A stretch of DNA of 63,026 nucleotides, the filler included, from Diploschistes diacapsis (Eukaryota): the NCBI GenBank assembly GCA_023645945.1. It is 6 parts of 6 records of this genome, joined end to end, with 100 filler letters (N's around TTAATTAATTAA, not from the genome) between each part and the next. Parts side by side here need not be neighbours in the genome. Positions count along the whole stretch, not along the records: positions 10,535 to 20,963 come from JALAIB010000925.1; 5 more parts are not named here. One strand, given 5' to 3'. The position numbers were made by a program, and so were the translations under genes. Shown in pieces: positions 11,037-47,598 of the stretch. Numbering within the stretch: the first letter of the stretch is position 1; each line of letters begins with the position of its first letter. The notes under the pieces were generated by a model. It saw nothing but the letters and a program-made list of their open reading frames with translations. It was not told where the DNA came from and ran no database searches.

Positions 11037-12791
11037 ATGGTTAAGAGAGGATTACCTGGCGCACTCTTCACAGGGGAGTTGGTATATGCCTCAGTCAAAC
11101 GTCGCTGCCTTGACAGTTGTGATAATCAAACAGAGCCTGGCAAGAGCTACATAGAGGCACTACCTGTGGAAATTCTTCTTCGCATATTTTCTTTCCTTCC
11201 AGTACACAGCCTAGTTAGATGCGAGCGGTAGGTACCAGATCAGAACCGTCTCAACAAATGTAGGGGTATGAAACTAATATTACTTACTAATAGTATTTGC
11301 AAGTATTTCGGTCTAGTAGCTTCCGATAGCTATCTCTGGAAAAGGCTCTATGCAGAACGATTTTTTCAGCCTCGGAAGAATACGAGACGACTACGACTAC
11401 AGACTTCAGCAGCATACCACCACGCGGTTCAACCAAATTCTCAGACATGGGGAAGGGTTGGCACAAGCTCTACGTTGAGAGCATGGAAATCGAGGTACAA
11501 GGTTCGCCACAAGTGGTCAAAGGGATTATGCCACTATAGAGAGATAAATCTCGCGAATCCAGGACTACCGAGAGTGCTGCTTCGTATCCATAATGGCATT
11601 GCGATTACTGCTGACCAGGATTTTGGCCTCCGTGCATGGGCTATCACGGCCCGCCAGCAGAGTCTTCTAGCAAGGTTCGACTTCCATCAACACAAATTGC
11701 ATGGGTTGATCCCACGCCCTTCATGTCTTGCAATCGATACGCAAAGGTCAACGGGAAACCCTATTCACCTAGCCATTGGCTTCGTGGGTGGAGATATAGG
11801 CATCTATTTACTCGATGTCGAGCTCAGCCTTTTTACACATTTGCAATCGTTCTCTGCTTATGCGGCGGAATGTGTTTTGTCTCTCGATTTCGGCTCTGCT
11901 CACGTTCTTGCTTTGAGTGAATCGCAGGTTCTTACTCTCCACAGACTGAGCAACAATCCTGCCTTTATAGATATATCAGAACCCCCAACGCTCCTTACAT
12001 CATTTAAGTCTTATACTGCTGGCGAACTAGTTTCGTTATCATTTCGAAAAATCAATGATATTTTTATCATCTCAATGGCTTACATCCATCCAACTTTCTT
12101 CGCGGGCTGGAACGTGGGCTTCCAAGAATTCTCGATGACGCTACAAGGAGTCCTATTACGATCAAGGAGTGCTCAAAATCGGAGAAGTGGCGCCTCATCA
12201 ACTTCAACAACTTCATCACAATTAATCCGTAATTCGGGCATATCTCACGACACTTCTCAATTAAATGCGGTGAAACCAGTGTCAATTGAATACTCACATC
12301 CCTACTTATTGACGACACATGCGGACAACACTCTAGGCGTATGTCTTGTACGATCTAGCGAGGCTGAACTTACTATCAGCCGTGAAACGAGGCTATGGGG
12401 CCACACCTCGCGCTTGACAGGCGCGCAAATCGGAGATCGAGGTAAGATTGTCACAATCGCCCAAGGAAGAGATGTGCGGGTTTGGGAGCTAGAAGAAGCC
12501 TTTAGATTAAGTACGTCGAAGGCTGGCGCCCCAAGCATGATCACTAGTGTGAAAATTCGACCTGAAGCTCTTCAGTATGAGAGCCAAGGCTCGCGCAGTA
12601 CACAGGCGCCTTCACTATGGACAAATGCCATGATACAGGCTCAAATAATCCAGAATAGTGATCATGAAGATGATTTGAAAGAAGCGAGGCCTATTGAAAA
12701 GGCGTCACTAGCATTCGATGAAGAGAAGTTGGTTGTGCTTCACGATACCGGCACTAATAGCCAGTCGCTGTTTGTTTATGACTTCACTTAA
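11037..12791 (+). CDS. F-box protein with C-terminal beta-propeller/WD40-like region, 2 exons
   Basis: F-box LPVEILLRIFSFL...ICKYF..VASDSYLWK, plus LWGHTS and VRVWELE WD-like motifs. Confidence 0.85.
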
Positions 12792-16018: not shown

Positions 16019-17337
16019 TCAACAACCTTGGTTCGTGCGAGGCTCTTCCTCGTCGCATTTTGCGCTCTCACTCTCCCATATTTCAAAACACTCCTCGTTC
16101 CCTCCTTGGTCGGTGGTGGAACTTGGAGGCGACTTAACGGTCGGCGCGGCGCAGCACTTGCTGGCCGAGTCAAATTGAGCTAGCAGTTCCTTCCACGCAT
16201 CCTGATTTGCGGTTATACATTCAACGGGGGAAGGCACAGATTGACAGTTCTTCGCCATCGCATTGCACGCGAAAGGCGACTTTTCCTGTTCGACAGGTTC
16301 TTTCTCCTCATTTACGGTGATAAAAGAATTCCGGTCGCACCCCTCAGCATAGAAATCCCGGGTGTTTAGGTCTGCAAGTGGCGTTCTGACTTCTTCCGTC
16401 ATCAAGTCTTTCCTCGAAACTGGCGTGATAGTGGCCATGTAGGGAGCACTGGCAGCTTCACCTGTTAAGAGTTCGCATGGTGGGATGTTTTCCTTGTCGG
16501 ATTGGTCGTATTCAATGACTTTACTCTCATCGTCCGAAATATCCAATATCTGCGTCGAGAACGCCACCAAGTTACCAAGCTCCTCTTCAGGAGTATCTTC
16601 ATGGATGTGGAATAGCCAACCATTCGGCACCGCGTCTTCCAAATTTAATGGTGGACGACAGGCAGGCTCAGGTGCATAAGATGGTACCGTGCCCGAGAGT
16701 GCCCCGTCAATGGAAAATGGCAGCCCATTCGAGCTTTTGCTCTGTAGGGCAAAAGTTGGCGGGTCCACCCTTGTGAAAGGGGAAGAAGAAACTCTCCGTC
16801 GAGAGAGGATACCGGCGCGTTTGCCCTTGGGTGACCGACCAGCAGTTGACAGTGCAGGAGCGCTCTTGATGGTTGGATTAGACAGCTTACTTGTGCTCAC
16901 AATAGGGTTGCTTGGAGTACTTGGGGTGTGATGTGTCTGCTTTAAAACAAATTTCGAGGGCTTTGACGATGCAAAGACACAGTCATCGAAGGTTTTGGTT
17001 TTCTTGGAAGAGAAAAGCATGTCCGGATCGACGTTCTCCAGATTAGAGTCGGGGTGCTCTTCCAAAGGACGAACACGCTTTCGAGAAAAAGATTCTGGAA
17101 GAGGGTGGGCTATGCACACGCGCGTTAGCAAACATAGACCATCGATAACAGAAGCTAGAGTTGATGGCAAGCAGTGGCGGCGCGTTCGACAAAACCAGCA
17201 ACACGACAATATAGATGATAACTGGATCGCTCACCATTCTGAATATTCTTGACATTTGTCAGATTTTTATGCCTCCTGCCAGTAACAGATGCTAATGGTT
17301 GACGAGCATGTAAAGGGCGGGGAGCAAAGGTCGTCAT
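16019..17337 (-). CDS. Fungal disordered protein carrying APC/C degron motifs (D-box, ABBA, KEN); putative Acm1-like APC/C inhibitor or substrate
   Basis: Exon 1 MTTFAPRPLHARQPLASVTGRRHKNLTNVKNIQN ends at a GTGAGC donor (about 17234). Exon 2 contains FHIHEDTPEE, DKENIPP, RTPLADLN and several S/TP sites. Confidence 0.8.
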
Positions 17338-17488: not shown

Positions 17489-17730
17489 TCGCGTGTTTGT
17501 GGAAGTTCTATGCAAGCAAAGGGTAGGTAGACTTTCGACGACGTGAGTTGACGTGACGTGACGCGTTGGAGTTAAGGCGTTCAGTGGTACGAAGCAGGCA
17601 GAGTATCGATTGGTCTCGAATTGATCTTTCTATCTGGCTTTGAAGGAGAGAGAGAGAGAGAGAGAGGGAGGGATCCATCAATTCCAGATTTCAGCGTGAT
17701 ACATAAAAACAACACGCGAATTTGGCGCGT
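17489..17730 (-). promoter_or_regulatory. Cluster of MCB/SCB-like (ACGCG-core) elements upstream of the degron-array gene
   Basis: ACGCGT 17561-17566, TCGCGT 17489-17494, ACGCGAA 17714-17720, GCGCGT 17725-17730. Confidence 0.5.
17646..17666. repeat. (GA)n microsatellite
   Basis: About 10 GA units. Confidence 0.85.
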
Positions 17731-28828: not shown

Positions 28829-30444
28829 TTAATGTCTCCAAAGTTTAACTACCTTGTCTTTGCCTCCGCTTCCGACCTTCTGTCCGTCTGGAGACCAGTC
28901 TACAGCATAGGCTTCATCCCGGTGGCCGGGTAAATCCTCCTTCAACTTTCCTGTAGAACAGTCCCATACCTTCAGCGTCATATCCTTACTACAACTCACT
29001 AATAGTCTACTGTCTGCTGAAAAGCTTGCCATGTACACTGGGCCGACGTGCCCTCGCAGCGTAAACAGAAACCTGCCGTCCGAAGCACTCCAGAGCTTCA
29101 CATGATTGTCAAACGCTGCAGAAGCAATAAGGCGGCCGTTTGGGGAAAAGCTAACGTGATTGACCTGCTTTTGGTGTCCGAGCAGACGAGTCACCGGTTT
29201 CGTGCTTGTGGAAGGGTTCCAGAGGTAGATTGTGCAGTCGTCGCTTGCGGATATCAGACGCTCGACAATTTCGTTGCTCACTTTAGCAGCCTTTTCGAAT
29301 CGATCCTTGGCCTTAGCAAGCTTCTCCTCTTCTGATGATGGAATAACGCCGGTATGATCGTGGTAAGCAGTTCGGAGAACGAAATCTGTCGATAGGGCCA
29401 AATGATTTACCCAGTGAGCGTGAGCTGTCAGGTTGCTGATCATGACCCCTTTGGCCGCGTCCCATATCTTCACGGTCTTATCCTGTGAGGAGGTATATAT
29501 TCTACCAGTTCCCCCCCAACGCACGCAGGACACCGAGCCCTTGTGTCCACTCAGAACGAAGTCTGTTCGTCTTGTAACCGCATCCCAGATTCGGACTGTC
29601 GAGTCTTTCGAGGCTGAAGCTAAGCGTGGTCTCCCAAGAGCCTGTAAATGATATGGTTCCCATGCAATACTCCGCACCCATTTTGTGTGCCCTTTCAGTG
29701 GCGAACCATGAGGTTGTCCTGTGCTCGCATCCCATAAGCGAACGGTATTGTCCATACTGCCGGTCGCCATCAAGCTGGCATCGGGCGACCAGCTAACGAC
29801 CAGCACCCAGCTGGTATGTCCTTTCAGTGTATACTGCGGGGTCCCGGTGTCACAGTCCCACACTCTTGCTGTATTATCTCCAGCGCCGGTCAGCAACTTT
29901 CCAGATGATGCGGGAGAGAATTGCGCCGCGAGAATGGCCTCTCCGTGGCCGGGAATGGACGAGGCGCATCGTGAAACGGAGCGAACGTGGAAGACTGCCT
30001 GTGGTTTGCACTGCAGGTATATTGTTTCTTCCGTGCTCTTGACCTTTGGCTCTAGTATTGAATGATATATGTCGCGAGCGATGTCCACACTGCTGGGAAG
30101 GGGGCCTTGATTATCGGAAGCATTATTGATCAAGCTAAATCTGTACGGCACACGTTCAGAAGCGTTCTTTTCCCCGATAAGCGCAGTGATGATGAAGGAC
30201 ACGATGTCAGTACCTGTTTACCCAGAAGCGAATTGACGAGCAGCTCAAGGTTCTTTACTGTTGCATCTATAACCGGTACGGCAATCGTGTCACCGATAGC
30301 ATTTCCGGTTATTTCGTCGAAGAACCGGAGCCTAACGTTACCTAAGTCGGAGGGTATGGTATCGAGAACATCCTGCTGTTCACGCGCACGCTCCGCTTCC
30401 GCCGTCCTCTGCTTCTTGCTTGGGGGGGGGAGTACGGTGGCCAT
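28829..30444 (-). CDS. RSA4: Ribosome assembly protein 4 / Notchless (NLE domain + WD40)
   Basis: MATVLPPPSKKQR start, PQAVF.V, GHGEAIL..QFSP, WEPYHL, HAHWVNHLALSTDF and LPGHRDE. One intron near 30167-30213. Confidence 0.95.
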
Positions 30445-35420: not shown

Positions 35421-38400
35421 TCATAGTTGTTCTCTCAATATAGCAACTTTCGTAACGATCTCGTCGCGCAAGGCAGGCTTGTCTACTAGCTGTACCATTT
35501 TGAGGGACATCAGCGCAAGGCTCTTGCATCCAATGTCGTTCGCACAGCCAAAGCAATTCGTTGCAAGATTGAATGCGGAGATTACCAGCCATTCTAGCTC
35601 TTCTGCAGGATACGCCTCGGAATTGTTAGAAATTCGGATGTAAACAAGCGCAGCCTCTTACTGTTGACGAGGTACTGGCCAATTGGTAAGTTTGGTCGAG
35701 CAAAGTTTCTAGACCTGCTGAATATGATTCCTGGAGCAATAGGAAAAGGCAACGAATCCACCGAGAGATTCTGGCGAGATCCGCATTTTGAAGATGAATC
35801 GCGTTATTTAGAATTTCCTGAGACATTTAGCTTGGCATCAAAGCGTTACCAACAAGATTCGAAATGCCTCAAATATGGGTACAACGGCTATTTCCCAGAG
35901 TTAGCTTATTATCAAACAATCAGTTCACGTAATTGCTATTACCTCGCGTTGGGGTTTCAATAGAGAGGAGTAAATCACTCAGTAACGCATACGTTTCGAA
36001 ATTTTCTAGTACCTGAGCTTGCTGGTGGATAGTTAGCTGAGGACCGGGATGTCAGGGCCAAGTTTTGTTTCAACTTGCCTTTGCAGCGCCGAGAGCAGCT
36101 TGCCAATCTTGTAATCGCAAACATGCTTCGAAACGGGCGACAAACATTGTTGAAGCCTTGGGGAGCATAACGTGTTCGGCATTTTTCGCTAGATTTGCTC
36201 GCGAAGCAATGAAATTCGCAGCGAAATCTCTCCCATAAGCTTGAAGTTTCCGATAAAAATGCAGCTGAGGTAAAATGTCTGAGCAGTGGCAACTTTCGGG
36301 CAGAATGATTCGAAATACCTACCCGCGCATTCATACAGTCGGCATTGCGTGCAAGCCTTAGTAAAAGTGAGCCACACAAGTACAGGATGAGGACTTGTTG
36401 GGGTTTAGATTGAAAACATTTCCGAGGCTCGTACGCAGGCTCGCATGCGAGGGCCCAGTAACGAAAGAGCTGGATACTGTCAGAACTAAGCGGCCTTTTC
36501 TCTTTCCTTTGTTACCTCCAAGGAAAGTTCAGCCAAGCGCAGCGAACTCGTGAATGGTAACCGCTGCAGATTCTTTAGCACCTGGTCGTAGCTTGTTTTC
36601 CAGAACCACTCTAGTTCTTCTAATCTGAATAGACCGTTCCGTTGAATGTCCCTTGCACGTGTTGAAACTTTCAAGAGTCATGTGCCTTGCTTATCGGACA
36701 ACGGAATGGACTTACCTGTCTCAAATAGTGCGTGGAGATCGTCGAAGATTTTATCTCCATCTATGCCACCGGAATTGGATGCCGCCAGATCAAGAAGAAC
36801 ACAGATCGCACACCTAGCTCTTAGCCTCGTTTTTTGGGGTTCTGGCCATAGCTTCTACCTGTATATGGCTGTGGCCTCCGCCTGAGCATTTTCATTACTC
36901 ATAACCACGTGCAATGCGGACATAGCTTGGCCCCATTCTCCAGCTACATAAGCCTCGAAAAGGCAAGTGTAGCACATATTACCATTCCTGAGGTCTGAAA
37001 GCAAGATAGCTTTGAAGGAATCAACCACTATACATACAGTTAGTGAGATACTACTCTCTTCAATCAAAGCCAACTCTTTGTGACGCACAAGCAAGTTGAT
37101 CGTGAAACAGAAGCGCAACCTTATACAATAGGAACTGGGTGTTCCAGCTGGACTTCGTAGACTCTTCCAATTCCGGAACAATCGATAAAGCCCTGTGAAC
37201 ATCACCAGCGGCAATTGCGCACATGATAAGCCTCCTGTGCGTGGAGATATTAGTCAATGTCCATATAGAAACCACGAACAGGCGAGCTGTGTTCGAGTCT
37301 CGCATATGGCTTATTACCGCTGTAATCTGGCTTTGTTGGTTTCGCCAAAGCATCCAGAGAATTCTCGTAAGCCAAGCATGCACCAGCTACCGGCAACGCC
37401 AGGATTGATAGTTCCCTTATGTAACAATCTCCAAATCAGCTTAGAACTTCATTAGTGCCAGCATCATGTGAAAGTAAGCTCTGTGGTTACGCACCATCTG
37501 GCAGACTTTTGAGGCAGCAAAAGATACTCCACGCCCAGTTTGCTTGGTTATTCTGTTCAGCATGGTGCTTGTATCCATTACGCATTGTAGCGACTGCCAT
37601 TCAGCGGAGGTCTGGCTCCAAACCAGCAATACAACCAATCTCTCAATCCAACCCTGACATTCAAAGTCTCCCAATCTTTCGCTCAAGAACGTTCGCAATA
37701 AATCATGAGTTGGTCCGGGATGCGGAATTCTTAACACATATACATAATGCACTATCATGTCAAAGAGGGGCTGCGTGAGACGTGCTCTACACATGATCCT
37801 CGCCAGTCCGTTAAGAGGATGCTCACCGGCTCCTTCGTGTGTCGGTCCAAAAAGATCGAGGATTGCCAATGACCTCGGCAAGCTGCCGTTATCTAACGAT
37901 TCTGCGTCACGGGCTGACGCTAAAATTCGATCCATATCGTCCTGTTCGAGAGCTTCTCGAGGGATCCGTAACAACATATGCGATACTGCAAGCCTCAAGT
38001 CCAAGATCTGCTCACGAGAGAACCCCCTGCCGCTCAACCGGTCGAAGAATTGGTCTACCAGAGCAAGCCATTTGACAGCAGAACAAAATTTTTCGCTGGT
38101 GATAAGTTCTTCTACAAACTCAGTCACCACGGTGAAGAGGCTCTGCAGAAAAGTCGACCTTAAGGTGGAGCTTGTGGCTGTCAGTCTGCTCAACCAGGTC
38201 TCCGCGAGGTCTTGTCGAGCTTGCATCCAAGCCTAGAAAGCGGTTAACAGGGAAAAAACCGCCATAATGAGCATCAATACCAAGACGAGGCGGAGCAGCG
38301 TGTATTCGTTTGACAGTCTGTTGCGACTATGACGCAGATCCTCGGTTGAATTTCGCAGAGCCTCGTCATAAATTGCCGCCTTGTCCAAGAGACCCTGCGC

Positions 38401-44949: not shown

Positions 44950-46774
44950 TTAGTCTTTCGAAGAATATGCTTCCCTCCGAAAGTGATTTCTTAGGTGGTC
45001 AAGGCTAGAGATGGTTTGTATGAATTCAGCGTCTTGCAGCTTTTGCAACGAAGCATACAAAGCGGCCGTGACGCTCGCAATGATGCAAAGAGGGTATAAG
45101 ACACTAATTGATAAGACGACATCATACATGCTCGCGACATGGGCGAGGGCGGATGTGAGCAACGCTGTTGTGAGCCATGGGAAGGACCCAAACAAGACTT
45201 ATTGCCACGTCAGCTTTTTTCAGTATAAAAATCATGAACACTCACTAATTGCAGCAGTCAGGAACACTGCAGACCTCCAACTGACAAGCGCTGAAAAGAC
45301 CAATACTAGGGGCCACTTCAGGGCCGCGATTAGCTGCACAAGGCTCGTGAGCCTAGGCATCGTGGCAACCAAGCCGCTCATCCGCAGTTCTATATCTTCC
45401 ACGCGGCTTCTTGTTTGCTCGATGCTGCTCACTACGGCTTCGATACTCGCAGTCATCGTCTCCTAAGGCAACATCAGCACTCGGTTGTTGCATAAGACAT
45501 GAAGATCCAATACTCACGACCAGTTCTGTAGCATTCGCGATAGCAGCTTTCAACTTCGTATCAACCATCTGTCCGATTTGGTCCTGTAGCTTCAGTACTT
45601 GCTCGCTCGTCCGGCTCAGCTGAAGCTCCTGAGCATGCGAGATTGAGCTAACGCCGTCATATATTGTTCTATGTGTGCTGACTATTGCGTCTCGAAGACC
45701 CTCGGCGTCATGAGCTCCATGTTGAACGATCTGTTCACCGTATTAGCAGTCTGCAGATAATACAGTTGCTCACTAACCGCCACCAAGCCCTCCGCTTCCC
45801 CCTGTGCCTCCCTCATCGAGACTGATAGCGCCCTCATCAGTTCCCTCGTCATGTCGCCGGCCTCCCTGGTCAACCATTTGAATATGTCACTGACCTCTCT
45901 TGCCGAGGCCTCCAGATCGCGAGCCAGCTGCGATCTAAAGCTGTTGACGTCTTGCATGAATCTCTGTTGCTCGCTTATTCGGTGTTGGTTATCGCTGAGG
46001 AAGTCATCGAGGGCCTTGGCGACCTCGCCATTTGCTGCAATCACTTCCTTGAGGCTCTTGGCATATTCTGCTGCTCTGGTTTCAGTTTCGACTTGAGCAA
46101 ACACATGTGAGGTGTCAACCTTGATCGAATCCAGGGCGCATGACTTTACACCATAGGTAAGCATCGCGACGATTGTTGCTGTAGCTTGTCCACCATTGAG
46201 ACTTCGAGTGTAGTGCGGAGATGCAGGTTTTCAGCTGCGATCTCCCAGCGTCGTCCAGGACAGTGGATAGTCCATCCGAGTCTGGCGGCAGCCGAAGTCG
46301 ACACGATTCAGGCAATTTAGTTGCTGCCCCTTCGAGCTCACACACCGCTAGATGAGCAGCGTACAAGTTCTGTACATTTTCGAGGTCTGTCTCATGGACG
46401 CCTATCTGGAGATTCTCGCAAGTAGTAAGTATTTTGACCGTGGCGACACGCTTGCATGTCGAGGACGACTCTATCACTGCCAGACGCCGCCGAGCTTCGT
46501 CAAAATAGTCGTGCTGATCGGCAACTGGGAGGTATTGATTTTCAAGGCCTGCCTCGGCCGTGGCGCCAGCAACCTCCAGGGATGGTCGCTGTATGTTTGC
46601 TGCTGCTGCAATCAGGTTCAAGCTTTGGCATTTATAGCACCACTCACAGCTAAGCCAGAGCATCGGATTAGGTGATCTCCAGTATGCTGCTGAAAGGGTC
46701 ACTGTGTTGAGCAAGACGATGAATTGCCATACGGTGCGCTGCGTGATATTCAACATCTTGAGGTTTGAGTGCAT
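44950..46774 (-). CDS. KAR5: Nuclear membrane fusion protein Kar5/Tht1 (Brambleberry/GEX1 family)
   Basis: Signal peptide, Cys-rich domain (SSTCKRVAT..C, YAAHLAVCEL, CISALHSKSQWWTSYSN..C), coiled coils and C-terminal TM helices. Confidence 0.85.
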
Positions 46775-47598
46775 AAACACAAGGTATTTATAATATGCGG
46801 AAGGATGAAGGAGAACGAGTCAATTGGACGGCTAAGAAGGGTTGAAGTATCGATGTGGTACCAAGACCAAGCTTGGTGAGTGATTGAAGTGAGATGACAG
46901 AGGGTAACGATGAGGGCGAGGCTTGCTCAGCCCGGAAGTGATGCCTTCGAGGACGAAGGCCCATGAGTCTTGATACTCGTGGTTCATTAAAGCGAAATAT
47001 TGCAGATATCAAAGTCGCCTATAGCCCTATAGGGCCTTTTGACTGCTCAGTCAATGGGAAGCTCCGGGGGAGATGAGAAAAGCGCAACAGGTAGAAAGAA
47101 CATTTCGAGACTATCTTATAAAAATTGGGTTTACCTAGTGACTTAGCACATGAAGATCGATTTAGCCCAGCGAAGAACTTCGAACATTTCCGACCCAAAT
47201 GAAGATCCGTCGACAGTGCCTTACCATGAGGCAATTATGGTGAAACGGCATCACGTGCTTCCTCATTTTTGCCGAAGATCATTAGGGTCAAATTGGAAAG
47301 GGTCAATGATTGATCTAACATCACAATAAGCATCTTTGGAGGTCAATACAGTGACTGTAAGTCCTCTGTTCGTAATCTTCAGCTTTGTGCATACAACCCC
47401 AAAGGTTTGTACCAAAAGTCGTCAGTCATTCACTTGAATGCAACGCAATAAATAATATCACAAGAGAAGCGAATTTCATGACAAAGACATTCTGCCCTAT
47501 CTGCCGTTTCCAATATCATCCCTGCGTGGGCTCGCCCAAACATGGCTTCAACTCTGGAGGCCTAGCGGCGCGCAAAAGTGCGATACTTGCATCACCAA

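What the first reader, a model, noticed from the sequence alone, without database searches (positions are those of the whole stretch)
16019..17337. Candidate filamentous-fungal counterpart of the APC/C inhibitor Acm1 (ABBA-KEN-D-box array)
Seen: this low-complexity protein carries, in order, an N-terminal D-box (RQPLASV), an ABBA-like motif WLFHIHEDTPEE (about 16580-16618), a KEN box DKENIPP 39 aa later (about 16480-16498), a D-box RTPLADLN 36 aa after that (about 16364-16387), and a second ABBA-like FEIWESE near the C-terminus. It also has several S/TP sites (TPSTP, RSPK). Established: budding-yeast Acm1 inhibits Cdh1 as a pseudosubstrate with the same ABBA -> KEN -> D-box order (from memory: FMLYEETAEE, SKENLSP, RIALKDL) plus an N-terminal D-box. 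Acm1 is usually described as budding-yeast specific. Inference: this 'hypothetical' protein could be an unrecognised APC/C-coactivator inhibitor in Pezizomycotina.
Basis: partly seen in the sequence, partly recalled or inferred. Interest (0 to 1): 0.78.

Follow-up and report, generated by a model that had tools for sequence, protein, structure and literature searches.

The report
Conserved fungal APC/C-binding motif protein
This lichen-fungus gene encodes a floppy protein carrying three docking motifs for the cell-division ubiquitin ligase APC/C in a fixed order. The array is kept across filamentous ascomycetes, so the protein may be a missing brake on, or an early target of, that ligase.

Summary
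A two-exon gene on the minus strand (17337..16019) encodes a 397-aa, mostly disordered protein.

The array is not chance. It appears in 8 of 200,000 shuffles of this protein. It is present in 469 of 478 relatives from Lecanoromycetes, Sordariomycetes, Leotiomycetes, Dothideomycetes and others. Variable and fixed positions match the ABBA, KEN and D-box consensus.

The family has no Pfam domain. Databases call it 'hypothetical' or, wrongly, 'thymidylate kinase'. Promoters of orthologues are enriched in ACGCG (MCB-type) sites.

The layout mirrors the Cdh1-inhibitory region of yeast Acm1: ABBA, helix, KEN, D-box, then a conserved extension after the D-box. No sequence homology to Acm1 was detectable, and no binding test could be run.

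The main rival is securin. A Chaetomium securin is published, and I could not check whether it is this family. Another rival is a SAC-resistant substrate like cyclin A.

Verdict: a real, conserved ligand of an APC/C coactivator. The Acm1-like inhibitor reading is plausible (about 0.4) but unproven.

The parts
16019..17337 (-). Whole gene. Exon 1 is 17337..17235, the intron 17234..17110 and exon 2 17109..16019. The product is 397 aa.
   Evidence: The GT...CTAAC...AG intron keeps the frame. The exon-1 peptide aligns with the N-termini of homologues. The same small first exon is found in DNA upstream of exon 2 in 52 of 80 sources.
17278..17304 (-). N-terminal D-box RQPLASVTG (residues 12-20). The family consensus is RQPFAPL.
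   Evidence: 244 of 478 protein models carry it; many models miss exon 1. At DNA level it is found in 52 of 80 sources.
17024..17044 (-). KEN-like xEN box, NLENVDP (residues 57-63). The family consensus is [SFAT]EN[IV]DP.
   Evidence: E24, N25, D27, P28 at least 90% conserved. Present in 404 of 478 relatives. He 2013 shows that NEN and GxENxP sequences can use the KEN receptor.
16757..16843 (-). Basic block AGRSPKGKRAGILSRRRVSSSPFTRVDPP (residues 124-152). It holds an S-P CDK-type site, an RRxS basophilic site and RVSSSP, which resembles a 14-3-3 mode-1 site.
   Evidence: G90, R91, S92, P93, R113, P116, P117 conserved. RSP is present in 427 of 478 relatives. R..[ST].P is present in only 168 of 478, so the 14-3-3-like site is not family-wide.
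16688..16726 (-). Conserved island GLPFSIDGALSGT (residues 163-175). Its partner is unknown.
   Evidence: F131, S132, D134, A135, A136, L137, G139. Present in 401 of 478 relatives.
16595..16618 (-). ABBA motif with its leading Trp: W199-L-F201-H-I-H-E-D206.
   Evidence: n=466: W 449, F 463, P2 variable, I 460, H 407 / Y 56, E 443 (Q, V, A tolerated), D 447 / E 17. It matches Fx[ILV][FY]x[DE] and cyclin A2 FTIHVD.
16550..16591 (-). Predicted alpha-helix directly after the ABBA motif (residues 208-221; PEEELGNLVAFSTQ).
   Evidence: AF2 model: helix at P0001 173-186. The 10-residue block 171-180 has mean pLDDT 92. N214 is conserved in 440 of 464 sequences. Acm1 has a helix at the same place.
16523..16546 (-). 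Acidic Ser patch LDISDDES (residues 223-230). It looks like a CK2 or phospho-SIM site; its function is unknown.
   Evidence: L 453, D 456, I 438, S 464, D 455, E/D, E 444 of 466.
16478..16498 (-). KEN box DKENIPP (residues 239-245).
   Evidence: K, E, N and the P at +3 are each present in 466 of 466 aligned sequences. KENx[PA]P is present in 475 of 478.
16388..16414 (-). Conserved pre-D-box segment RKDLMTEEV (residues 267-275).
   Evidence: R 436, D 390, M 405.
16361..16387 (-). D-box RTPLADLNT (residues 276-284).
   Evidence: R 466/466, P 401, L 461, G/A, E/D, L/M. Position 9 is A, V, P or T, not the consensus N.
16304..16357 (-). Conserved extension right after the D-box, DFYAEGCDRNSFITVNEE (residues 286-303).
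   Evidence: Y 424, G 442, C 387, D 418, S 413, then four hydrophobic residues and P 340. AF2 pLDDT is 84-88. By position it is comparable to the 'D-box extension' of Acm1 that perturbs Apc10 (citing Qin 2019). That comparison is inference.
16163..16198 (-). Predicted helix around W340 (AWKELLAQ; residues 339-350).
   Evidence: helix at P0001 304-315. W305 is at least 90% conserved in A1.
16058..16087 (-). C-terminal motif FEIWESESAK (residues 376-385).
   Evidence: W344, E345, S348 and A349 are invariant in A1. Present in 424 of 478 relatives. It is degenerate in Dothideomycetes. It does not fit the ABBA consensus.
17490..17730 (-). Promoter stretch with four MCB-type ACGCG cores, including the palindrome ACGCGT at 17561..17566.
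   Evidence: A single site in this window is at chance level. Across 25 distinct orthologous promoters the cores are enriched.

Best explanation
The gene encodes a Pezizomycotina-wide, intrinsically disordered cell-cycle protein. Its centre is a three-part docking module for the WD40 propeller of an APC/C coactivator (Cdh1 and/or Cdc20).

Proposed docking, by analogy with the solved Acm1-Cdh1 complex. An ABBA motif would sit in the groove between blades 2 and 3. A short helix follows it. About 40 residues on, a KEN box would sit on the top face. About 35 residues further, a D-box would sit in the groove between blades 1 and 7.

My preferred reading is that the module binds all three sites of one coactivator at once. 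It would then act as a pseudosubstrate brake on APC/C-Cdh1, as Acm1 does in budding yeast.

Proposed regulation (all inferred):
- The non-consensus D-box tail and the conserved extension behind it would keep Apc10 from engaging, so the protein inhibits and is not ubiquitinated.
- The gene would be switched on at G1/S through MCB-type promoter sites.
- The separate N-terminal D-box and the xEN box would serve for removal of the protein in mitosis.
- CDK-type sites would tune its stability.

Shown here: the motifs, their order, spacing and conservation, the disorder with a local helix, and the promoter enrichment. Inferred: binding, inhibition, timing and turnover.
For: 1. The ordered array is present in 469 of 478 relatives from at least five classes. 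It occurs in 8 of 200,000 shuffles of this protein.

2. Position-by-position conservation follows the ABBA rule, not a generic pattern (n=466). P1 F 463; P2 free; P3 I 460; P4 H/Y 463; P5 mostly E, with Q, V and A tolerated; P6 D/E 464. The consensus is Fx[ILV][FY]x[DE]. His at P4 occurs in cyclin A2, FTIHVD.

3. KEN plus P at +3 is present in 466 of 466 sequences. The D-box R is present in 466/466 and L in 461.

4. The ABBA-to-KEN spacing stays within 35-48 aa, with modes at 39/40 and 42/44. In Acm1 the A motif starts at residue 61 and KEN ends by P103; DB3 starts at R119.

5. AF2 places a confident helix directly after the ABBA motif, as in Acm1 residues 71-80.

6. P5 is Glu in 443 of 465 sequences. 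The same residue, E65 of Acm1, contacts K333 of Cdh1 and sets Cdh1 specificity.

7. D-box position 9 is A, V, P or T and not N. A roughly 18-residue conserved extension follows. In Acm1, residues after the D-box disturb Apc10 (passages citing Qin 2019).

8. A separate N-terminal D-box exists, like Acm1 DB1.

9. ACGCG cores number 64 in 25 distinct 500-bp promoters. Dinucleotide shuffles give 25.2 +/- 4.6, and 0 of 500 shuffles reach 64. That is 2.56 per region against 0.94-1.12 in three control regions.

10. Human securin lacks an ABBA motif and is therefore held stable by the checkpoint (Discussion passage). A strong ABBA-KEN-D-box array is thus not what a securin is expected to carry.
Against: - No binding or inhibition result of any kind was obtained.
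- No sequence homology to Acm1. The profile search against PDB chains gave only ubiquitin and deaminase chance hits.
- The protein is twice the size of Acm1. It has at least five further conserved islands (PFSIDAAL, the basic block, LDISDDES, the W-helix, IEIWESESAK) that an Acm1-like role does not explain. These suggest another partner or an effector function.
- The 14-3-3-like site is present in only 168 of 478 relatives.
- Cyclin A2 also combines ABBA, KEN and D-box motifs and is a substrate, not an inhibitor.
- A Pezizomycotina securin family with conserved KEN and D boxes is published. I could not exclude that it is this family.
- The nearest named cluster in the ESM Atlas is a PF04856 'Securin' cluster. 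The score is 0.78, a lead only, and the tool itself rates the family as probably wrong.
- Presence of the family in Eurotiomycetes (Aspergillus) was not shown.
- The promoter sets are related to one another, so the enrichment is not made of independent events.
- MCB-driven G1/S transcription would fit securin equally well (recalled, not from a call).
Confidence: 0.4

Rival explanations
1. It is the securin of filamentous ascomycetes. The N-terminal D-box and xEN box would be the degrons. F-[D/E]-I-[H/Y]-E-D-T-P would be the separase pseudosubstrate. The roughly 190 residues behind it would wrap along separase. It may be the same family as the Chaetomium thermophilum / C. globosum securin already in print.
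For: - Cromer et al. 2019 describe a Pezizomycotina-wide securin family, represented by C. globosum XP_001225358.1. It has conserved KEN and D boxes and a conserved Glu-containing patch (passages and figure legend read).
- Rosen et al. 2019 say the human pseudosubstrate EIEKFFP was found by homology to C. thermophilum securin. The C. thermophilum member of this family, CTHT_0050460, reads EIYEDTP at the ABBA site, so it shares E-I-x-x-x-x-P.
- [D/E] at the residue before I, and I itself, fit P6 and P5 of the separase consensus [D/E/S]-phi-E-x-x-R.
- The segment after the motif has the length of a separase-interacting segment.
- The nearest named ESM Atlas cluster carries PF04856 Securin in 55% of its members (weak lead).
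Against: - In the frame that fits P6 and P5, the P4 residue is H or Y in 463 of 465 sequences and never the 'invariable' Glu. In the other frame, P6 is Ile, and the Glu is replaced by Q, V or A in at least 19 sequences.
- F at ABBA P1 (463 of 464) and W two residues before it have no role in the separase consensus. They are explained by the ABBA reading.
- 0 of 46 members match PF04856, even at E<=10.
- KEN and the D-box would lie inside the separase-binding segment and not N-terminal to it.
- Human securin lacks an ABBA motif, and this is why the checkpoint can stabilise it.
- Cromer et al. cite a C. globosum accession. The C. globosum model of this family (CHGG_10777) is mis-built and lacks the ABBA/Glu patch, whereas the C. 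thermophilum model is intact. That makes it an odd choice of representative if this were their family.
- I could not map XP_001225358.1 to a locus tag. Lin et al. 2016 is not held.
Confidence: 0.22
2. It is an ordinary, if very well-docked, APC/C substrate with another job, carried out by its other conserved islands. Like cyclin A or Clb5, the ABBA motif together with KEN and the D-box would let it be degraded early, even while the spindle checkpoint is on.
For: - Cyclin A2 uses KEN, D-box and ABBA cooperatively, and the ABBA motif lets it escape MCC inhibition.
- At least five conserved islands lie outside the degron array, which suggests a further partner.
- One member gives a faint hit to PF16500, the cyclin-A N-terminal APC/C-binding region (E=0.097, 1 of 46).
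- Promoter ACGCG enrichment fits any G1/S-induced cell-cycle protein.
Against: - Degrons of plain substrates are rarely invariant with fixed spacing over a whole subphylum (466 of 466 for KEN and the D-box Arg).
- The helix after ABBA, the non-consensus D-box tail and the conserved extension are the features linked to inhibition in Acm1.
- No domain or known effector motif was found.
Confidence: 0.3
3. It is a Sororin/Sor1-like cohesin regulator. That would be an APC/C-Cdh1 substrate with a KEN box and a short conserved C-terminal domain that binds cohesin.
For: [quoted passage not shown] The present family has a KEN box and a conserved C-terminal motif.
Against: - The K/R-rich stretch does not precede the C-terminal motif here.
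- The conserved residues named for Sor1 (F299, V302, D303, Y305) give a pattern that I do not see in IEIWESESAK.
- No FGF motif is present.
- I could not check whether the Pyrenophora protein named in that paper belongs to this family.
Confidence: 0.05

Closest known systems
Acm1 of Saccharomyces cerevisiae, pseudosubstrate inhibitor of APC/C-Cdh1 (structure 4BH6; He et al. 2013, PMC3690534; passages read)
   Same: - N-terminal D-box.
- The order ABBA (A) motif, helix, KEN, D-box, with similar spacing.
- Glu at ABBA P5 and an acidic residue at P6.
- A degenerate xEN sequence besides the true KEN.
- A non-consensus D-box position 9, followed by further conserved residues.
- CDK-type sites.
- A disordered chain.
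   Different: - No detectable sequence homology.
- About twice as long (397 against 209 aa; the Acm1 length is recalled).
- Several extra conserved islands.
- The 14-3-3-like site is not conserved family-wide.
- KEN-to-D-box linker of 21-96 aa (median 33), against about 20 in Acm1.
- Function untested.
Securin: human PTTG1, and the Chaetomium thermophilum / C. globosum securin of Lin et al. 2016 and Cromer et al. 2019
   Same: A disordered APC/C ligand with N-terminal degrons. It has a conserved acidic patch with [D/E]-I that partly fits the separase consensus. In C. thermophilum, EIYEDTP compares with human EIEKFFP.
   Different: - The P4 Glu is not conserved in the matching frame.
- No PF04856 match.
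- It carries an ABBA motif, which human securin lacks.
- KEN and the D-box lie behind the patch, not in front of it.
- Identity with the published fungal securin is unresolved.
Cyclin A2 / Clb5 N-terminal degron array
   Same: The ABBA motif is almost the same (FTIHVD against FHIHED / FDIHED). ABBA, KEN and D-box are used together on one coactivator.
   Different: No cyclin box. The order of motifs differs: in cyclin A2, D1 lies 41 residues from the ABBA motif. Cyclin A2 is a substrate, not an inhibitor.
BubR1/Mad3 KEN-ABBA-D-box cassette of the mitotic checkpoint complex
   Same: Pseudosubstrate use of KEN, ABBA and D-box motifs to block coactivator sites.
   Different: No TPR domain and no Bub3-binding region. 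One array, not two.

Membership tests
Acm1 (homologous family) | Detectable sequence similarity to S. cerevisiae Acm1 | tested here: not met
   The family profile (A1) was searched against all PDB chain sequences, which should include the Acm1 chain of 4BH6. It gave 4 hits at E<=10: three ubiquitin sequences and one deaminase. No Acm1 sequence was available for a direct comparison.
Acm1 (works like) | A motif (ABBA), then KEN, then D-box, in this order and close enough to bind one Cdh1 WD40 domain | tested here: met
   F201, K240 and R276 in the window protein. The ordered array is present in 469 of 478 relatives, with ABBA-to-KEN spacing of 35-48 aa. This was compared with Acm1 residues 61-70, about 98-103 and 119 onward.
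Acm1 (works like) | Helix directly after the A motif | tested here: met
   AF2 places a helix at P0001 173-186 with pLDDT up to about 92. This is a prediction only.
Acm1 (works like) | Separate N-terminal D-box for its own destruction | tested here: met
   RQPLASV at residues 12-18. The motif is conserved in 244 of 478 protein models and 52 of 80 DNA sources. Only presence was tested, not function.
Acm1 (works like) | CDK-dependent 14-3-3 binding site | tested here: inconclusive
   RVSSSP is present in the window protein. R..[ST].P is present in only 168 of 478 relatives.
Acm1 (works like) | Binds Cdh1 tightly and inhibits APC/C-Cdh1 without being ubiquitinated | not testable with these tools
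   No Cdh1 or Cdc20 sequence could be obtained. No whole genome is held for this window, and the window and 40 distinct loci hold no such gene.
Securin | Match to Pfam PF04856 | tested here: not met
   0 of 46 members match at E<=10. The window protein matches no Pfam family.
Securin | Pseudosubstrate [D/E/S]-phi-E-x-x-(non-R), followed by a long separase-binding segment | tested here: inconclusive
   Central motif: P6 and P5 fit, but P4 is H or Y; in the other frame P4 is Glu but P6 is Ile. C-terminal motif: it fits phi-E-x-x in most members but lies 10-50 residues from the end.
Securin | Identity with the published C. thermophilum / C. globosum securin | not testable with these tools
   Lin et al. 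2016 is not held. The supplements of PMC6690013 and PMC6858450 hold no such text. The locus tags CTHT_0050460 and CHGG_10777 are found in no held paper.
Securin | Binds and inhibits separase | not testable with these tools
ABBA-motif class of APC/C ligands | Fx[ILV][FY/H]x[DE] in a disordered region, conserved | tested here: met
   position counts; consensus; cyclin A2 FTIHVD.

The most novel reading that the evidence does not exclude
Filamentous ascomycetes possess a subphylum-wide pseudosubstrate inhibitor of APC/C-Cdh1 that has gone unrecognised. It is built like Acm1, with ABBA, helix, KEN, D-box and a D-box extension, but it is unrelated in sequence or diverged beyond recognition. It would fill the gap noted for Aspergillus, where no Acm1, Emi1 or Rca1 homologue is known. 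Its extra conserved islands would couple Cdh1 inhibition to a second, still unknown partner.
Probability: 0.35. Interest if true: 0.8.

Novelty: new variant of a known kind. Interest (0 to 1): 0.62.

Why it matters
How APC/C-Cdh1 is switched off at G1/S in filamentous fungi is an open point. Paolillo et al. 2018 state that none of the known inhibitors (Emi1, Acm1, Rca1) has an obvious homologue in A. nidulans, and that the cyclin PucA alone carries the load.

A subphylum-wide protein with an invariant ABBA-KEN-D-box array makes this directly testable in Neurospora, Sclerotinia or Chaetomium. Members found here include CTHT_0050460 and a Neurospora crassa protein.

Even if it proves to be securin or a cyclin-A-like early substrate, the family is unannotated or mis-named 'thymidylate kinase' in public databases. 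It is also a clean natural example of three cooperating degrons held at fixed geometry for several hundred million years.

Tried and rejected
- Whole genome of the window: none is held. No search for Cdh1, Cdc20, separase or a second securin in the same genome was possible.
- Complex prediction: not run, for lack of a partner sequence from the session. The window and the flanks of 40 distinct metagenome loci hold only generic WD40 genes below the CDC20/Fizzy cut-off.
- Pfam: no family for the window protein. Among 46 members, the only strong hit was PF02223 in one fused gene model.
- PDB sequence search with the family profile: chance hits only.
- Earlier findings of this scan: nothing relevant.
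- Literature for the motif strings and locus tags: nothing relevant.
- Papers not held: Lin 2016, Luo & Tong 2017 and 2018, Boland 2017, Qin 2019, Burton 2011, Enquist-Newman 2008.
- Supplements of PMC6690013 and PMC6858450: no text on the fungal securin. The figures that show the securin logos are not held.
- Mapping XP_001225358.1 to a CHGG tag through papers that list C. globosum accessions failed.
- Thymidylate kinase as a conserved neighbour: rejected. There were 0 tblastn hits in the window and 79 loci. The name comes from one fused model, P0240.
- RNA evidence: no RNA holder was listed.
- A single ACGCGT in this window is at chance level (10 sites against 10.3 expected). Only the cross-species count is informative.
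- The second 'ABBA-like' FEIWESE is rejected as an ABBA motif (W at P4, S at P6).
- Sororin-like reading: considered and given low weight.
Full report
THE GENE

The finding lies in a two-exon gene on the minus strand. Exon 1 (17337..17235) encodes 34 residues plus one base. A 125-nt intron follows (17234..17110), with GTGAGC, a CTAAC branch site and a TAG acceptor. Exon 2 (17109..16019) is in phase. The spliced CDS is 1194 nt with one terminal stop and gives 397 aa.

The database model of this very gene (P0003, 366 aa) starts inside the intron and misses exon 1. Exon 1 is nevertheless real. Its peptide aligns with the N-termini of homologues. The same short first exon, M...R-Q-P-F-x-x-L...R-L-[RQK], is found in DNA about 200 bp upstream of the main exon in 52 of 80 sources, namely 79 metagenome loci plus the window. 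The window itself failed my strict pattern only in the last element.

THE OBSERVATION

- RQPLASV, residues 12-18.
- WLFHIHEDTPEE, residues 199-210, 16618..16583.
- DKENIPP, residues 239-245, 16498..16478.
- RTPLADLN, residues 276-283, 16387..16364.
- FEIWESE, residues 376-382.
- TPSTP and RSPK.

The spacings of 39 and 36 aa are exact. In 200,000 composition-preserving shuffles of the protein, an ABBA pattern occurs in 2.3%, KEN in 10% and the ordered array in 8 cases.

HOW WIDE THE FAMILY IS

- The exon-2 protein finds 492 proteins at E<=1e-3. The best 120 are all from lichen-forming Lecanoromycetes.
- A profile of 38 of them finds 610 clusters at 50% identity, of which 322 have E<=1e-30.
- Named members come from Sordariomycetes (Ophiocordyceps, Tolypocladium, Xylariales, Colletotrichum, Neurospora, Chaetomiaceae), Leotiomycetes (Sclerotinia), Dothideomycetes (Aulographum, Bathelium), Lichinomycetes, Sarea and Trizodia.
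- Model-organism members are CTHT_0050460 (Chaetomium thermophilum), CHGG_10777 (C. globosum) and a Neurospora crassa protein.
- I did not see a Eurotiomycete. Only the best 120-150 rows of each search are listed, so this says nothing either way.
- All members are called 'hypothetical' or 'thymidylate kinase'. The latter traces to a gene model fused to a true thymidylate kinase (P0240; PF02223, 2.5e-44, 1 of 46 members). No thymidylate kinase lies next to the gene in the window or in 79 loci.
- No Pfam family matches.

WHERE THE CONSERVATION SITS

Alignments of 38 and of 46 diverse members show islands in a sea of variable sequence. On 466 aligned segments (of 479 proteins; 3 lacked KENx[PAS] and 10 lacked a full-length segment) the counts are as follows.

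ABBA region: W 449, x, F 463, [D 312 / E 90 / others], I 460, [H 407 / Y 56], [E 443 / Q 11 / V 5 / A 3], [D 447 / E 17], T 434.

The free positions are exactly the two 'x' positions of the ABBA consensus Fx[ILV][FY]x[DE]. His at P4 is the cyclin A2 form, FTIHVD.

KEN box: K, E, N and the Pro at +3 are each present in 466 of 466 sequences.

D-box: R 466, P 401, L 461, then G/A, E/D, L/M, D/N. Position 9 is A, V, P or T.

In 478 relatives the ordered array is present in 469. The nine exceptions include fragments or mis-built models (P0209, P0223, P0248, P0257, P0430) and three single-residue variants: N at P6, R at P4 and L at P1.

ABBA-to-KEN spacing is 35-48 aa, with modes at 39/40 and 42/44. 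From KEN to the D-box the distance is 21-96 aa, median 33.

The sample is biased. Two of the four searches were seeded in Sordariomycetes.

FURTHER ANATOMY

- AF2, run with the 46-sequence alignment, gives a mostly disordered chain (mean pLDDT 55, pTM 0.23). There are confident local elements. One is a helix right after the ABBA motif (P0001 173-186; block pLDDT up to 92). Another is the D-box region with its extension (pLDDT 84-88). A third is a helix around a conserved Trp near residue 340.
- The D-box is followed by a conserved stretch, [DE]-[FY]-Y-A-E-G-C-D-x-x-S, then four hydrophobic residues and P (G 442, C 387, D 418, S 413, P 340).
- Other islands:
  - [SFAT]-E-N-[IV]-D-P, in 404 of 478 relatives.
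  - A basic block with R-S-P, in 427 of 478.
  - PFSIDAAL, in 401 of 478.
  - LDISDDE, nearly invariant.
  - A C-terminal [ILVF]-x-[ILV]-W-E, in 424 of 478 and degenerate in Dothideomycetes.
- FEIWESE is not an ABBA motif by the consensus.

PROMOTER

One ACGCGT lies 225 bp upstream of the start codon. In this window that hexamer is at chance level (10 sites against 10.3 expected).

Across 25 distinct orthologous promoters of 500 bp each, ACGCG cores number 64. Dinucleotide shuffles give 25.2 +/- 4.6, and 0 of 500 shuffles reach 64. That is 2.56 per region, against 1.00, 0.94 and 1.12 in far-upstream, downstream and coding controls.

The promoters are related to one another, so these are not independent events. 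Still, the pattern fits MBF/SBF-type G1/S control. The link between that motif and G1/S is from my own knowledge.

WHAT IT MOST LIKELY IS

The centre of the protein is a three-part ligand of an APC/C coactivator propeller. This follows from three consensus motifs being the most conserved residues of the family, in fixed order and near-fixed spacing.

Comparison with Acm1 rests on He et al. 2013 (passages read), which gives:
- DB1 at the N-terminus.
- The A motif at residues 61-70, with F61, Y64, E65 and E66.
- A helix to residue 80.
- NEN at 90-92.
- KEN ending at P103.
- DB3 from R119.
- A 14-3-3 site at pT161.

The present family has the same order, a helix at the same place, Glu at ABBA P5 (the residue that gives Acm1 its Cdh1 specificity), a second degenerate xEN, and a D-box with a non-consensus tail plus a conserved extension. 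For Acm1, residues behind the D-box are reported to disturb Apc10 and so favour inhibition over ubiquitination (passages citing Qin 2019; that paper itself is not held).

I therefore prefer an Acm1-like pseudosubstrate role, at about 0.4. It would be made at G1/S and removed through the N-terminal D-box.

No homology to Acm1 is detectable. This is a claim about how the protein works, not about family membership.

RIVALS

Securin is the serious rival.
- Cromer et al. 2019 (passages and the Fig. 9 legend read) show a Pezizomycotina securin family built around C. globosum XP_001225358.1. It has conserved KEN and D boxes and a Glu patch.
- Rosen et al. 2019 say the human pseudosubstrate EIEKFFP was found by homology to C. 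thermophilum securin.
- The C. thermophilum member of the present family reads EIYEDTP at the ABBA site.

Against this:
- The separase consensus is [D/E/S]-phi-E-x-x-R. In the frame that fits P6 and P5, P4 is His or Tyr. In the other frame, P6 is Ile and the Glu is not invariant.
- F at ABBA P1 is invariant, which only the ABBA reading explains.
- PF04856 matches 0 of 46 members.
- Human securin lacks ABBA, and that is what lets the checkpoint hold it stable.
- The C. globosum model of this family lacks the very patch in question.

I could not read Lin et al. 2016 or map the accession, so I keep this rival at about 0.2.

A cyclin-A-like early substrate with another function is kept at about 0.3. 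It is favoured by the extra conserved islands and by the fact that cyclin A2 uses the same three motifs as a substrate.

A Sororin-like role is kept low.

WHAT IS SHOWN AND WHAT IS NOT

Shown:
- The gene model and the motifs.
- Their statistical and evolutionary support.
- Disorder with local structure.
- Promoter enrichment.
- The database mis-naming.

Not shown:
- Any binding, inhibition or degradation.
- Cell-cycle timing.
- Presence in Aspergillus.
- Whether the family is the published securin.

No partner sequence could be obtained, so the one complex-prediction job was not spent.

Noticed in passing
window 17110-17337 (minus strand): The public protein model of this gene (P0003, 366 aa) starts inside the intron (MCIAHPLPE...). 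It misses exon 1 and with it the N-terminal D-box. About half of the family's public models lack this exon: 244 of 478 carry the motif, against 52 of 80 at DNA level.
   Followed up: yes
family-wide; P0240 (Ophiocordyceps camponoti-saundersi): Many members are named 'Thymidylate kinase' in UniRef or NCBI although they have no such domain. One gene model is fused to a real thymidylate kinase (PF02223, 2.5e-44), which is probably the source of the propagated name. No thymidylate kinase lies beside the gene in the window or in 79 loci.
   Followed up: yes
P0430 (C. globosum CHGG_10777): This public model lacks both the N-terminal D-box and the whole W-x-F-x-I-H-E-D block, although its close relatives have them. 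It is probably a mis-placed intron.
   Followed up: partly
window 16523-16546 (residues 223-230) and family: The nearly invariant [VI]-L-D-I-S-[SD]-D-E-E stretch looks like a phospho-regulated SUMO-interaction motif or a CK2 site cluster. No test was made.
   Followed up: no
window about 17640-17680 (minus strand, upstream of the gene): A (CT)n microsatellite of about 24 bases lies roughly 320 bp upstream of the start codon.
   Followed up: no
L002, L012, L020, L021, L060 (downstream of the family gene): In five distinct lichen-type loci the next gene downstream is an ATP-dependent DNA ligase (PF04675 / PF01068). This is not so in the window.
   Followed up: partly
window 11232-12788 (+), 37444-38232 (-), 46118-46819 (-): Other genes in the window include a pof12-type F-box beta-propeller protein (PF25499, 1.9e-77), an SPO22/ZIP4-like meiosis protein (PF08631) and a Tht1-like nuclear-fusion protein (PF04163).
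   Followed up: no
window 28832-30217 (-): A very regular seven-repeat WD40 protein (PF00400, 236 bits). It scores 170 bits on the CDC20/Fizzy WD40 model, below that model's cut-off of 200, so it is not a coactivator.
   Followed up: partly
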